Shown piece after piece: positions 10,382-61,882 of a DNA stretch of 64,000 nt. The stretch spans positions 108,438,001 to 108,502,000 of the forward strand of contig NC_042997.1 of the NCBI RefSeq assembly GCF_006345805.1, given 5' to 3'. A program made the position numbers. The stretch comes from Octopus sinensis. Taxonomy: Eukaryota. Positions within the stretch are counted from its first letter, which is position 1. Each line of letters opens with the position of its first letter.

Positions 10382-10460
<79 letters not shown>

Positions 10461-10628
10461 GGAGTAAACACATAAATGTGAAACAAGGTGGAAAAAAGAG
10501 TACTCAAATACCAGCAGTAGAGTAATATGCTTTATTTAAAAGCAGCAGAAATTCAACAAAACCTGTTACTCGGAGTAACAGGTTTTGTTGAATTTCTGCT
10601 GCTTTTAAATAAAGTATAATATATATAT

Positions 10629-10670
<42 letters not shown>

Positions 10671-11576
10671 ATGTACACTATATGGATTTATATAATCCTA
10701 TGGTAGCTTCAAAAAAGCTCTTTTAGTAGACCCAGTTACATACGACATAGTAAACTAATACATAGAGTCCCCTTTGCAGTTGAAATCCAGTAAATCCAAT
10801 CAGAGAAGATTATTTCAAAAGGAGTTTATAGAATATAAAGAAAGTCAGGAGGTATGAGATGAATAGATTCATTTTTCCAGTTGACATCCATCGGATGACG
10901 ACCGTTTCTCAGCCAACATCATGCAAAAATAATCTATTTTAGTGGATAATACATTTTACATGTCTGCACTGGTATGTACACTATAAATTGCATAGTACTA
11001 TTGTACATTTTACAAATCAATGCAGTTATACAAGATTAGATCTTCAGATCAACAGAGTATCATGGTCACATTAATTTTTCAACTCCAGTATACACATACA
11101 AAAAAAAATCATCTTCAAATTTATAATGTATGGAAAAACCAACAATTAATGAAAAAAAAAGTTTACTACAGAGTGGGGGAAAGGAGATTTTGTAAGATAT
11201 CAAAAAGGAAATTTCCTTTTTAATATCTTACAGAATCTTCTTTCCTTCTCACTTTAATAAATTATTTTATTAATAATTCATCTTCCATACATTACAAATT
11301 TTCTTTTTCTATGTGTATACTGGAGTTGAAAAATTAATGTAACCATGATATTGTATTGATCTGAAGAGCTAGCCTTCTATACCTGCACTGGTTTGTAAAA
11401 TGTGCAATAGTACTATGCAATTTATAGCATACATACCAGTGCAGACATGTAAAATGATTTATTATCCACTAAAATTATTTTAGTATGATGTTTGCTGCAA
11501 AACAGCCATCATCGTATGGATATCACCAGGTGAAATAAATATATTTATCCCATACCTCCTGACTTTCTTTATATTA

Positions 11577-11611
<35 letters not shown>

Positions 11612-58617: not shown

Positions 58618-59822
58618 TATGTGTGTGTGTATATAGAGACTAAGATAGTATATATGTATATAGTCTTCCGTCCATTTCTAATTTATCTTCGTATAAACCC
58701 GTTTTGATAATTCTGAAATTTTACACTGCATTCCTTTTTGGTTCGTACTATCTATCTATCTGCCTGTCTATTTGTCTATCTATCCATCTATCTGTATATA
58801 TATGTATGATGTGTGTATTTAAGACATTTTTTAGCCCTCTTGCGTTTTCCTTTTACAACTTGAATTCATGTATTCAGTCTCTCTCTCTCTCTCCTCATAT
58901 ATCTATGTGCGTGTTATATATTATTTACGTGTGTGTATGTATATTATATGTACTATATTCTAATTCTTTGTCACGACACTAAATCATCTCCACTGCGACG
59001 GCCACCACCGACAGCTACCATCGGTTTGGCGAGCCAACCACAGTCTCTACGTGGTCTATGGACCTGCTGGAAACATCAGTCGATCCCTCCCTCAAATCAC
59101 GCCTTATCAAGGACATATTAATAACGTCGTGTGTGTAGCGCTGAGAGGATGGTCATGTCTGGAATGTGTTTCATCATAGGCGTAGTCTGTCAGGGTTGAT
59201 CTGGGGCTAAAAGATGTCTATCACTTCGTATGCCTTAATATATTTTTGTTGTTATGACGTGTGTGGATGTTTCTCCACCAGTTTCAACAGTAAGGTTACA
59301 GTTGTTCAATCGTTTTATCCACTCATTGAATTAATTTATAAATGGCTGCGTATTCCGCATATATGGCTCCCCTTAACGTAATTCTCTGGCGGAATTGGTT
59401 GTGTCAAGCTTGTGTATTTAAGTTATAATCCATCTGACAGGCTTCCCTATAGTTTCCGTCTACCAAATTTCAGTAGCGAGGTCTATTTGATTCAGGGCTA
59501 CAGAAAGTGGCATCTGACCTGGTTGCCATATAGAGGCTCTCAGACCAGGATCTTGTGATTACAAATTGAGCTTCTTAATCATTTTGGCCATACTGTGCCA
59601 TCTGTTTAGTGTTGAGTGTCAGAAAAGCAGTACTCAATACCAAAGTAGAGGCTGATAATGTTTTATCTTGAACAAGTCAGTCTCGTATTGCACCTGTATT
59701 GGATCTTCAGGTAAGTTATGACTGTCAATAAATTACCTGAAGATCTTCTGCACACCCCCACAGGCAAAACACAGAAAGGCAAGAGACTGACTCAACTAAA
59801 ATAATCTGTCTGTCTCTCTCAC

Positions 59823-59876
<54 letters not shown>

Positions 59877-60107
59877 TACATACATATTGCACAAAGGATC
59901 GTGGGTAAGGCGAGAACAATGTGAAGTAAATGCAAGGCAAATGCCAAGAAAACAAATATGAATTAATGTAGACTTACCTTGCATTAATTCATATTTGTTT
60001 TCTTTTGCCTTACATTCACTTTGCATTGTTCTGGCCTTACCACAATCCTTTATACAACGCATTCTACACAATGCTTCACAGTAACTATTCCATTATAATA
60101 ATGTATA

Positions 60108-60157
<50 letters not shown>

Positions 60158-61882
60158 TGAAGTTGTCTGCGTATGGCAGGTTTGGTAGCCTTCAACTAAC
60201 ACTATCTCCTCCGAGACCCTGCTGCGCGAGTTGACCAAAATTGAGAGTATGATAGAAGAAGGCTTGCTCTCCCTTCAGTAGAAGAAAAAATTCAAATCGG
60301 ACCATGTTAACACTAAAAATTATTTATATCAAAAAGGTGCTTTTTTTCTATGAAAATCCCTATTTTTTATGATTGACTGCTGTGTCGCCATTTTTTGGTG
60401 TATTTCAACCAGAAAAATGTTCACTTAAAGAGAATAACAAGCTACATAATGCAAAACTCCAATTCTAAAGGGTCGAAACAAACCCGAGCAATGCCGGGCG
60501 ATACTGCTAGTATATTATAAAAGTGTAAACGAGAGATTGGGTTGAGCGAACCCGTTTTATTGCATAATTCCACAATTGTTTCATCTCCACTTTTCCTGCA
60601 GATACTTGCTGAAATGCTATTGTATGTTAAATATATTAAATATTTATTTATACTTTATGGATATTCATAGAGTTCTAGATATATCTTCAGTAATACGATT
60701 GGTTTTTGTTGTAAAACTGTAACTGGTTGCTGGTACTCACAGACAGGCCTCAAAAAGCTAACTACAAGGTTCATACCCAAATTGAATTCATATATATAAT
60801 AATAATAATAATAATAACAATAATAATAACTACACTCACGGAGTGGTTGGTGTTAGGAAGGGCATCCAGCCGTAGAAACACTGCCAGATCAGACTGGAGC
60901 CTGGTGCAGCCTCCTGGCTTCCCAGACCCCGGTCGAACCGTCCAACCCATGCTAGCATGGAAAGCAGACGTTAAACGATGATGATGATGATATATATATA
61001 GGGCACAGAAGGCAGCAAGCTGGCAGAATCGTTAGCATGCTGTATTTTGCGTGCTAACTTAGCGGTATTTTGTCTGTCGTTACGTTCTGAGTTCAAATTC
61101 CGCCGAGGTTGACTTTGTCTTTCATCCTTTCGGGGTCAATAAATAAATTACCAGTTTCGCACTGGAGTCGATGTAATCGACTTAATCCCTTTGTCTGTCC
61201 TTGTTTAGCCCCTTGTGGGCAGTAAAGAAATACATATATAGGGCACAGGTGTGACTCTGCGGTTAAGGAGTCTACTTTCCACCTGCATTGTTTTTTTGTT
61301 TAGTCTTACTGTTTGGCACCTTAACAAGTGCCTTCTGCTATAACCTCAGGTTGACCAAAGCCTTGTGAGTGGATCTTTGGTTGACAAACTGAAAGGCGTG
61401 TGTGTGTGTACTTGTATTTTGTTGTTTTATACTGCATAATAATTGTAAATTAGTGTCATACGACTTTGTGGTCTTGGGTTCGGGTTCGACTGAGCAGCAC
61501 CTTGGGCAAATGCTTTCTACTCTAGCCCCGGCTCAACCGAAACCTTATGAGTGGATTTGGTAGATAGAAACTGAGAAAGGCAAGTTTGTGTGTGTGTGTG
61601 TGTATAAGTCTGTGTTTACTTTTCTTTTCCCGTCATGTGATTGTAAATGAGCATTGCCATTATACGAACGTTGTTCTTTGTTTCCAGTCTTCCACGGGGA
61701 AATATTACCTTGCACAGAAACAGGTGAAGGTTGATGATTGGAAGGGCATCCAACCATAAAAAATCTGCCTTAGTGTGTTCCATGTGATTCATGCAAGCAT
61801 GGATAAATAGATGCTAAATGATGATGATATATATATAAAATTTAAAAATAGGATAAATTCTTCATAAGAATTTATCAAGTAG

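What the first reader, a model, noticed from the sequence alone, without database searches (positions are those of the whole stretch)
10460..60720. Dispersed population of tiny hammerhead-ribozyme fold-back elements, mostly beside (TA)n tracts
Seen: about ten type I hammerhead motifs (31583, 41168, 10894/11358, 23780, 35500, 44306, 44571/45025; weaker 13045, 49801, 60565) share topology and mostly a very short palindromic stem III, but have unrelated flanks. Most non-coding ones abut (TA)n, and many are doubled as inverted repeats. Established: Penelope pLTRs and retrozymes carry minimal type I hammerheads, and inverted pLTRs are known. Inference: many distinct families of non-autonomous, Penelope-mobilised ribozyme elements that integrate as hairpins into TA microsatellites. 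Their density and diversity in 64 kb is the striking part.
Basis: partly seen in the sequence, partly recalled or inferred. Interest (0 to 1): 0.85.

Follow-up and report, generated by a model that had tools for sequence, protein, structure and literature searches.

The report
One or two hammerheads, not ten
Of about twelve proposed hammerhead ribozymes in this octopus-like stretch of DNA, one is convincing and one is partial, both of a kind already described for Penelope-type retroelements, and the rest look like chance matches.

Summary
Partly confirmed, and ordinary. It has both core boxes, helices of 4, 5 and 4 Watson-Crick pairs, and an 8-nt palindromic helix III. A strict descriptor found only this site and gave 0 hits in 3000 shuffled windows.

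A second site, 41168-41297(+), has the same core spelling, a helix I, and a palindromic helix III that differs by a compensatory AU-to-GC change. Its helix II, however, is an irregular 97-nt hairpin. A third site, 44311, is inconclusive. The other nine are no better than background.

No Rfam hammerhead model matched, at gathering score over the whole window or at E<=10 in six local scans.

The "inverted twins" are long palindromic fold-back elements with no hammerhead. These elements are real: 9 of 17 abut a (TA)n tract at one end, against 0.87 expected.

The two credible motifs fit known Penelope/retrozyme-type dimeric hammerheads. Penelope's (TA)n insertion bias and inverted copies are already in print. 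The window is octopus-like. Family membership, copy number and cleavage could not be tested.

The parts
31583..31626 (+). Complete minimal type I hammerhead motif. Helix I 5' strand 31583-31586 (CCAC); core CUGACGA 31587-31593; helix II 31594-31610 (5 bp, 7-nt loop, A10.1-U11.1); GAA 31611-31613; helix III 31614-31621 (ACAAUUGU, 8-nt palindrome); H17 = A at 31622, with predicted cleavage just 3' of it; helix I 3' strand 31623-31626 (GUGG).
   Evidence: 0 of 300 shuffles for helices >=4/5/4. 0 hits in 3000 shuffles for the strict Watson-Crick compact descriptor. Two copies cofold into a symmetric double hammerhead at -20.2 kcal/mol, against 2 x -7.2 for monomers. No Rfam hammerhead match at E<=10.
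31579..31632 (+). Possible extension of helix I: AAAU 31579-31582 pairs with AUUU 31629-31632 across a 2-nt CG bulge at 31627-31628.
   Evidence: Read directly from the sequence. Not tested statistically.
31536..31554 (.). (TA)n tract that ends 29 nt upstream of the hammerhead motif.
31451..31542 (.). 92-nt hairpin (fold-back) that abuts the same (TA)n tract on its other side. No hammerhead in it.
41168..41297 (+). Hammerhead-like motif with an abnormal helix II. Helix I 41168-41174 pairs with 41291-41297 (3 bp, a C/U mismatch, 3 bp); core CUGACGA 41175-41181; 97-nt irregular hairpin 41182-41278, closed by G-C and C-G with an unpaired A on each side; GAA 41279-41281; helix III 41282-41289 (ACAGCUGU palindrome); H17 = A at 41290.
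   Evidence: Shares N7=C, an A after A9, ACAnnUGU and H17=A with 31587. No Rfam hammerhead match. Flanks unrelated to those of 31587.
41065..41146 (.). TA-rich (TATATGTATG)n array that ends about 22 nt upstream of the 41168 motif.
44311..44335 (+). Inconclusive partial motif: covariant core UUGACAA, a 4-bp helix II (GGGA/UCCC, with G10.1-C11.1) and GAAA. Helix I has only 2 bp and helix III only 1 bp.
   Evidence: This sub-motif class is found 3 times against 0.43 in shuffles (3 of 300 reach 3) and 0.63 with decoy cores (6 of 150 reach 3). No Rfam match.
44528..45128 (.). (TA)n at its left end only. Not a hammerhead: both arms read CAA/CAG where GAA is needed.
10832..11575 (.). Not a hammerhead.
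22675..23807 (.). 1133-bp palindrome (about 75% complementary). Judged a chance match.

Best explanation
The window is TE-dense, microsatellite-rich, octopus-like DNA. It holds one intact and one degenerate copy of the small type I hammerhead found in the pseudo-LTRs of Penelope-like elements and in their non-autonomous derivatives, the non-LTR retrozymes.

Shown:
- 31583-31626 has every conserved core nucleotide and three Watson-Crick helices.
- Its helix III is an 8-nt palindrome. In a single molecule it can form only 2 bp around a tetraloop.
- Two copies are predicted to pair through an 8-bp intermolecular helix III into a symmetric double hammerhead, in which each copy supplies the cleavage-site strand to the other.
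- 41168-41297 keeps the same core spelling. Its helix III palindrome carries a compensatory central AU-to-GC change, which matters only for the dimer.

Inferred:
- Both are solo or 5'-truncated remnants of retroelement insertions next to (TA)n tracts.
- Both are probably inactive where they lie. There is no partner copy nearby, and 41168 has a disrupted helix II.

The remaining nine or ten sites are chance core matches. The "inverted twins" are unrelated palindromic fold-back elements, probably MITE-like derivatives of TA-targeting DNA transposons.
For: - Strict descriptor: 31587 only; 0 hits in 3000 shuffles and 0 of 300.
- Helix-II-free descriptor: 31587 and 41175 only; 0 of 500 shuffles give 2 or more hits, and 0 of 179 decoy cores give any.
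- The two motifs share nucleotides the descriptor does not require: N7=C, an A after A9, ACAnnUGU, and H17=A. The palindrome centre changes from AU to GC.
- The dimer minimum-energy fold is a double hammerhead at -20.2 kcal/mol, against -14.4 for two monomers.
- Both motifs follow TA-rich tracts within 22-29 nt.
  - Metazoan Penelope hammerheads are minimal, very heterogeneous, mostly found as single motifs, have palindromic 15.2-16.2 positions and loop 3, and work as dimers (PMC4209133; parts 1-2 of 4 read, covering abstract through Bioinformatic Analysis).
  - Penelope-like elements prefer (TA)n targets and form inverted 5'-truncated copies; Octopus species carry remnants of the Naiad clade (PMC8557442, passages).
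  - Retrozymes derive from Penelope pseudo-LTRs and occur as dispersed solo monomers (preprint 10.64898/2026.07.22.740005, abstract and passages).
- The best named protein hits are Octopus bimaculoides, at up to 83% identity.
- Background level of the other sites.
Against: - No Rfam hammerhead model matches either motif, even at E<=10 in 201-301-nt scans.
- 31587 has A10.1-U11.1 where G10.1-C11.1 is described as highly conserved. [quoted passage not shown]
- In 41175, helix II is a 97-nt irregular hairpin, and an extra A sits between its closing pair and G12.
- Neither motif has a second copy, a tandem partner or related flanks in the window.
- No RT or GIY-YIG domain was found in the 59 ORFs scanned, but that is only 59 of 249 ORFs of at least 70 aa.
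- The descriptor that recovers 41175 was written after I had seen it.
- The window was picked by a reader who was looking for such motifs, so per-window probabilities overstate the significance.
- Cleavage was not tested.
Confidence: 0.6

Rival explanations
1. All of the motifs, 31583 included, are chance matches in an AT-rich, hairpin-rich and repeat-rich sequence. There is no ribozyme-derived sequence here.
For: - No Rfam hammerhead hit anywhere.
- Non-canonical A10.1-U11.1 in 31587, and single-copy status in the window.
- Relaxed motif density equals that of shuffles.
- A junk site at 19693(-) also passes the loose descriptor.
Against: - 0 hits in 3000 shuffles for the strict descriptor.
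- A second motif 9.6 kb away shares four features the descriptor does not require, plus a compensatory change in the palindrome.
- 0 of 179 decoy cores hit the real sequence.
- An 8-nt perfect palindrome as helix III is the published hallmark of this class (PMC4209133).
Confidence: 0.22
2. One reading: a dense population of about ten tiny hammerhead fold-back elements from many families. They are Penelope-mobilised, integrate as hairpins into (TA)n tracts, and are too divergent or decayed for my descriptors and the Rfam models to recognise.
For: - The compact scan shows a 1.8-fold excess of near-motifs at P<=2: 28 against about 15.
- 44311 has the U3-A8 covariant core known from Schistosoma Penelope hammerheads, plus a good helix II (PMC4209133).
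- Palindromic fold-backs are strongly associated with (TA)n: 9 of 17 against 0.87 expected.
- Inverted truncated Penelope copies and opposite-strand hammerhead pairs 100-700 bp apart are published (PMC8557442, PMC4209133).
Against: - Ten of the 12 sites score P=2 or 3 in the penalty scan, and 23780 scores P=1 only through long loops and G-U pairs. 17.7% of bases lie under a P<=2 parse and 62.6% under a P<=3 parse.
- The wide scan shows no excess.
- By my reading of the list, at least 5 of the 28 compact near-motifs lie in trinucleotide repeats.
- Both arms of the 44528-45128 palindrome read CAA or CAG where GAA is required, so the ancestor was not a hammerhead either.
- The (TA)n tract lies at one end only in 9 of 9 cases.
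- One fold-back has termini that I recall as mariner-type, and pogo/Tc5 transposase remnants are present.
Confidence: 0.08
3. 31583 is a working, host-retained ribozyme, for example one that processes a transcript, and not transposon debris.
For: The core is intact and all 13 helix pairs are Watson-Crick. Helix I can be extended.
Against: - No conservation data.
- A helix III that needs a partner copy, and none is nearby.
- It sits between microsatellites in repeat-rich DNA, with no recognisable gene.
Confidence: 0.05

Closest known systems
Minimal type I hammerheads of Penelope-like element pseudo-LTRs (Cervera and de la Pena 2014, PMC4209133; Lunse, Weinberg and Breaker 2017, seen only as a citation in PMC6765202, since the paper itself is not held)
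   Same: Type I topology, a short helix I (4 bp), no recognisable loop-loop contacts, a palindromic helix III that implies action as a dimer, occurrence as single dispersed motifs with unrelated flanks, and an animal host.
   Different: - A10.1-U11.1 in place of the highly conserved G10.1-C11.1.
[quoted passage not shown]
- Helix II is 5 bp rather than 6-8 bp.
- No Penelope ORF or pseudo-LTR was recognised nearby.
- No consensus family could be built.
Metazoan non-LTR retrozymes (Cervera and de la Pena 2020, PMC7229834; Li, Clavereau and Pollet 2026 preprint)
   Same: A small AT-rich non-coding unit carrying a type I hammerhead. Solo monomers scattered through the genome are described. The roughly 150-170 bp between TA-rich tracts around each motif falls below the 200-400 nt circular-RNA size fractions and the ~300-bp monomer size quoted in PMC7229834.
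   Different: No tandem repeat of the unit. Circular RNA and expression were not testable. The published examples are from coral, mussel, axolotl and vertebrates, not cephalopods.
Palindromic MITE or fold-back elements derived from Tc1/mariner/pogo DNA transposons
   Same: Pogo/Tc5 remnants are present in the window. Mariner-like coding remnants are my reading of ORFs only; Pfam did not confirm them.
   Different: Membership was not tested. No transposase-matched terminal repeats were shown. The mariner-type terminus of 26802-27059 is recalled, not searched. The one-sided (TA)n tract is not a textbook MITE feature.

Membership tests
Hammerhead ribozyme, type I | Conserved core boxes C3-U4-G5-A6-N7-G8-A9 and G12-A13-A14, an A15.1-U16.1 pair, and H17 not G | tested here: met
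   All present at 31587-31622 and at 41175-41290. 44311 has the U3-A8 covariant form.
Hammerhead ribozyme, type I | Three helices meeting at the core, with helix I open | tested here: met
   31583-31626 has helices of 4, 5 and 4 Watson-Crick pairs. For 41168 this is not met: helix II is an irregular 97-nt hairpin with an unpaired A before G12.
Hammerhead ribozyme, type I | G10.1-C11.1 pair at the base of helix II | tested here: not met
   31587 has A-U there. 41175 has A opposite A, followed by G-C.
Hammerhead ribozyme, type I | Match to a curated covariance model (the Rfam hammerhead families) | tested here: not met
   No hammerhead family at gathering score or at E<=10 in six local scans. 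I did not test whether these models detect published Penelope minimal hammerheads.
Hammerhead ribozyme, type I | Site-specific self-cleavage 3' of H17 | not testable with these tools
   Needs in vitro transcription of monomer and dimer constructs.
Penelope-associated minimal hammerhead | Palindromic 15.2-16.2 positions and loop 3 (dimer-forming helix III) | tested here: met
   ACAAUUGU and ACAGCUGU are perfect 8-nt palindromes. The dimer minimum-energy fold is a double hammerhead.
Penelope-associated minimal hammerhead | Unpaired nucleotide between A9 and 10.1, and a long helix II (6-8 bp) | tested here: not met
   In 31587 the A after A9 pairs with U, and helix II is 5 bp. In 41175 an unpaired A does precede a G-C pair.
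Penelope-associated minimal hammerhead | Location in a pseudo-LTR flanking an RT plus GIY-YIG ORF, or homology to such a pseudo-LTR | tested here: inconclusive
   No RVT or GIY-YIG Pfam hit in 59 of the 249 ORFs of at least 70 aa. No Penelope sequences from this genome were available to compare.
Penelope-associated minimal hammerhead | Membership of a multicopy consensus family with covariation | not testable with these tools
   No eukaryotic genome collection was available. Within the window there is no second copy. The only support is one compensatory change between the two motifs.
Non-LTR retrozyme | Head-to-tail tandem repeats of about 170-400 bp, each with a hammerhead | tested here: not met
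   No tandem array covers either motif, and neither has a second copy in the window.
   Arms of 10832-11575, 22675-23807 and 44528-45128: the best parses score P=1-3, no better than background, with no Rfam hit.

The most novel reading that the evidence does not exclude
The palindromic fold-back elements that abut a (TA)n tract at exactly one end (9 of 17 here), together with the two hammerhead units that also follow TA-rich tracts, could be products of one integration route. In that route a GIY-YIG/Penelope-type machinery primes at (TA)n and the cDNA snaps back on itself, so that short non-autonomous RNAs of many unrelated sequences, only some of them carrying hammerheads, are fixed as hairpins with a microsatellite at one end.
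Probability: 0.06. Interest if true: 0.6.

Novelty: new member of a known kind. Interest (0 to 1): 0.2.

Why it matters
If 31583 is real, it adds a cephalopod example to the large catalogue of Penelope/retrozyme-type dimeric hammerheads. Its unusual A10.1-U11.1 base pair would make it a useful natural variant for cleavage assays. It does not open a new question: dispersed solo hammerheads, their link to Penelope elements, (TA)n targeting and inverted copies are all published.

The practical lesson is methodological. CUGANGA plus GAAA co-occurrences read by eye in AT-rich, hairpin-rich DNA mostly sit at background level.

The one-sided association of long palindromes with (TA)n tracts is the more curious pattern in this window and may deserve a genome-wide look.

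Tried and rejected
- Rfam. The whole window at gathering score gave only U6. At E<=10 the 150 rows shown out of 318 were almost all microRNA-model matches, largely in TA-repeat hairpins, with no hammerhead. All six local scans were negative for hammerheads.
- Type II and type III topologies. One loose hit centred on the core at 25736 (25667-25798), with 43-nt loops. It lies in what I read as a mariner-like coding remnant, which Pfam did not confirm, and I judged it a chance match. Shuffle means were 0.06 and 0.02.
- 26231 (GAAACAAUUGUU). It has the same palindrome as 31611 but no core within 120 nt upstream; the nearest CUGANGA on that strand is at 25736. It lies in an apparent transposase reading frame, so I rejected it.
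- 19693(-). It passes the loose descriptors, but helix I has three G-U pairs, the loops are 26 and 38 nt, and it lies in a (TCA)n repeat. Rejected.
- Flank homology between the two motifs: none. Copies of any candidate elsewhere in the window: only each one's own inverted arm.
- Search for a Penelope ORF. None was RT or GIY-YIG. Hits were pogo/Tc5 HTH and DDE_1, and a PHD finger just below its cut-off.
- Lunse et al. 2017 (PMC5785218) is not held, so its consensus could not be compared.
- Supplementary files of the papers were not opened. The alignments and descriptors in the supplement of PMC4209133 could bear on whether A10.1-U11.1 variants occur.
- The closed collections metagenome contigs and viral contigs were not used. 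Genome contigs holds only bacteria and archaea and was not used. Copy number in the source genome therefore stayed unchecked.
- The complex-prediction, structure-prediction, atlas and protein-representative tools were not needed.

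
Full report
**What the window is**

The 64-kb window is eukaryotic, about 39% G+C, and extremely rich in simple and dispersed repeats.
- Rfam at gathering score finds only a U6 snRNA at 34214-34318(-), at 82.4 bits.
- Tandem Repeats Finder lists 120 rows, and there are 75 (TA)>=5 tracts.
- Self-BLAST shows SINE-like families with about 20 matches each, and many long palindromes.
- An ORF at 20547-21002(-) is the C-terminal part of a LINE reverse transcriptase. 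Its best named relatives are Octopus bimaculoides proteins, at up to 83% identity, so I take the source to be an octopus or close relative.
- Nothing looked human.

**Checking the observation**

I wrote an explicit type I hammerhead descriptor: helix I, CUGANGA, a closed helix II, GAA, a closed helix III starting A15.1 and ending U16.1, H17 not G, then helix I. I ran it on both strands.
- Even with helices relaxed to 3/2/1 pairs, only two places match. One is 31587(+). The other is a site at 19693(-) inside a (TCA)n repeat, with three G-U pairs in helix I and loops of 26 and 38 nt, which I regard as junk.
- Adding the U3-A8 covariant core, an optional bulge after A9 and a helix II of up to 120 nt gives five hits. 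Only 31587 and 23784 are reader sites.
- A penalty scan (one point per core mismatch or missing helix pair) gives a best score of P=0 at 31583, P=1 at 23780, and P=2 or 3 at the other ten. 17.7% of all window bases lie under a P<=2 parse and 62.6% under a P<=3 parse. Those ten sites cannot be told apart from background.

**Motif density**
- In the wide scan, P<=1 motifs number 18, against 14.2 +/- 3.8 in local dinucleotide shuffles; 11 of 60 shuffles reach 18.
- In a more compact scan there is a 1.8-fold excess at P<=2: 28, against 14.9 and 16.0 in two kinds of shuffle and 12.4 with decoy cores on the real sequence. 1 of 100 and 0 of 100 shuffles, and 0 of 60 decoys, reach 28. By my reading of the list, at least five of the 28 lie in ATG/TGA-type trinucleotide repeats.
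- No Rfam hammerhead family appears at gathering score, among the 150 rows shown of the 318 at E<=10, or in six local E<=10 scans that cover nine of the twelve sites.

**The site that holds up: 31583-31626**

It reads CCAC / CUGACGA / AUGUC-AUUUGAA-GACAU / GAA / ACAAUUGU / A / GUGG.
- All 13 helix pairs are Watson-Crick. Helix I can be extended by four A-U pairs across a 2-nt bulge.
- A strict compact Watson-Crick descriptor finds only this site and gives 0 hits in 3000 dinucleotide shuffles of the window. An earlier test gave 0 of 300.
- Helix III is a perfect 8-nt palindrome. In one molecule it can form only two pairs around a tetraloop, and the hammerhead fold (-4.5 kcal/mol) is not the monomer's minimum-energy fold (-7.2).
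- For two copies, the minimum-energy fold (-20.2, against -14.4 for two monomers) is a symmetric double hammerhead. It has an 8-bp intermolecular helix III, and each copy supplies the cleavage-site strand to the other.

**A second, partial site: 41168-41297**

If helix II is left out of the descriptor (CUGANGA, then 8-130 nt, then GAA, then a palindrome of 6, 8 or 10 nt starting with A, then H, with helix I of at least 3 bp), exactly two places match: 31587 and 41175.
- 15 of 500 shuffles give one hit and none gives two. None of 179 decoy cores gives any hit on the real sequence.
- I wrote this descriptor after seeing the two motifs, so the figure is indicative only.
- The two share nucleotides the descriptor does not ask for: N7=C, an A after A9, ACAnnUGU, and H17=A.
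- The centre of the palindrome differs by a double, compensatory change (AU to GC). That change keeps self-complementarity, which matters only in a dimer.
- Against it: helix II of 41175 is a 97-nt irregular hairpin (-26.2 kcal/mol). It is closed by G-C and C-G, with an unpaired A on each side, one of them between the closing pair and G12. I doubt it would cleave.
- The flanks of the two motifs are unrelated.

**An inconclusive site: 44311**

It has UUGACAA (the U3-A8 covariation reported for Schistosoma Penelope hammerheads), a 4-bp helix II with G10.1-C11.1, and GAAA. Helices I and III fail. This sub-motif class occurs three times, against 0.43 in shuffles and 0.63 with decoy cores; 3 of 300 shuffles and 6 of 150 decoys reach three.

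**The inverted twins**

The twins are real DNA features but not ribozymes.
- 10832-11575 (744 bp), 22675-23807 (1133 bp) and 44528-45128 (601 bp) are near-complete palindromes, 75-87% complementary.
- In the 44528-45128 element both arms read CAA or CAG where GAA would be needed.
- At 23780 only the CUGAUGA lies inside the repeat.
- Taking 17 non-microsatellite palindromes from the self-BLAST, 9 abut a (TA)>=5 tract within 12 nt at exactly one end and none at both ends. Random placement gives a mean of 0.87, and 0 of 5000 trials reach 9.
- Their termini begin at TA or ATA. Pogo/Tc5 transposase remnants are present (HTH_Tnp_Tc5 and DDE_1). Two ORFs that I read as mariner-like got no Pfam support.
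- The termini of 26802-27059 resemble, from memory only, mariner-type inverted repeats (one search shows only that its two arms match).
- I therefore lean to MITE-like derivatives of TA-targeting DNA transposons. I did not test this, and the one-sided (TA)n remains unexplained.

**Comparison with what is known**
- I read the first half of the text of Cervera and de la Pena 2014 (PMC4209133, parts 1-2 of 4, abstract through Bioinformatic Analysis). Metazoan Penelope-like elements carry minimal type I hammerheads in their pseudo-LTRs. These are massive in number, extremely heterogeneous, mostly found as single motifs and sometimes as opposite-strand pairs 100-700 bp apart. They have palindromic 15.2-16.2 positions and loop 3, a conserved G10.1-C11.1 pair, an extra nucleotide after A9, and low activity even as dimers.
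- Passages of Craig et al. 2021 (PMC8557442) state that Penelope-like elements prefer (TA)n targets, form tandem and inverted 5'-truncated copies, and that Octopus species carry Naiad-clade remnants.
- Passages of Cervera and de la Pena 2020 (PMC7229834) and the abstract and passages of Li et al. 2026 (preprint 10.64898/2026.07.22.740005) describe non-LTR retrozymes as Penelope-derived non-autonomous elements with dispersed solo monomers.
- A search for hammerhead plus retrozyme plus octopus found three papers, none of which describes octopus hammerheads. I make no claim that none is in print.
The two motifs here fit it on topology and on the palindromic helix III. They fail it on G10.1-C11.1 and on the bulge and helix II length. 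Pseudo-LTR context and family membership could not be tested.
- No RT or GIY-YIG domain was seen in the 59 ORFs scanned, out of 249 ORFs of at least 70 aa.

**Verdict**
- One good and one degenerate Penelope/retrozyme-type hammerhead, one inconclusive fragment, and nine chance matches.
- The "dispersed population of hammerhead fold-back elements" is not supported.
- The fold-back elements and their link to (TA)n tracts are real, but they are a separate matter.
- My confidence that 31583 derives from a real hammerhead is about 0.6-0.7. My confidence that the density claim is wrong is about 0.85.
- Interest is low, since this kind of element is well known.

Noticed in passing
2357-2596, 10523-10621, 24901-25009, 26802-27059, 31451-31542, 39081-39453, 44528-45128, 45202-45527, 50968-51311: Nine of 17 long palindromic fold-back elements abut a (TA)>=5 tract at exactly one end and none at both ends. 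Random placement gives 0.87, and 0 of 5000 trials reach 9. The one-sidedness is unexplained. It could reflect microsatellite birth at TA target-site duplications, or a tail left by the integration mechanism.
   Followed up: partly
45202-45527: A young 326-bp palindrome, 97.5% complementary and about 51% G+C, with a 12-nt loop. It is flanked by TA-rich sequence and gives weak matches to plant microRNA hairpin models. It may be a source of hairpin RNA.
   Followed up: no
34214-34318 (-): A U6 spliceosomal RNA match at 82.4 bits over the full model, but with a poorly paired 5' stem. It is either a gene or a retroposed pseudogene.
   Followed up: no
43215-44128 (+): Remnants of a pogo/Tc5-type DNA transposon in three frames: HTH_Tnp_Tc5 at 23.2 bits and DDE_1 at 24.8 bits, both just above their cut-offs.
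   Followed up: partly
26802-27059: A 258-bp palindrome whose termini (ATATTGGGTTGGTGC...) resemble, from memory only, mariner/MADE1-type inverted repeats. Only its two arms match in the window. ORFs that I read as mariner-like lie at 25672-25908 and 30184-30447, but Pfam did not support this (a weak TetR_C_23 match and no family).
   Followed up: partly
20547-21002 (-), 39809-40399 (-), 30505-30828 (+), 45896-46183 (+), 20404-20682 (-): Several C-terminal fragments of LINE-type reverse transcriptase ORFs. Relatives of the first carry RVT_1 and PHD domains, and one also an Exo_endo_phos domain. The best named hits are Octopus bimaculoides.
   Followed up: partly
41988-42325 and 22328-22519: Tandem arrays of a 61-bp and a 67-bp unit that appear related in reverse orientation (TTTTACGTGCCACCGGCAC...). 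They lie next to a SINE-like family.
   Followed up: no
60829-60991, and about 20 other places such as 7473-7632, 33321-33483, 46713-46875: A SINE-like dispersed repeat of about 160-280 bp, 65-94% identical between copies. Several pairs lie head to head, for example 50968-51311 around a central (AT)18.
   Followed up: no
31712-31926: A 99-bp unit repeated 2.2 times (97% matches), each unit starting with (AT)8, directly downstream of the hammerhead-bearing segment. Its relation to the hammerhead unit is unknown.
   Followed up: no
25667-25798 (+): A loose type II/III hammerhead-like parse around the CUGAAGA at 25736, with very long loops. It lies inside what I read as a mariner-like coding remnant (not confirmed by Pfam), and I judged it a chance match.
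   Followed up: yes
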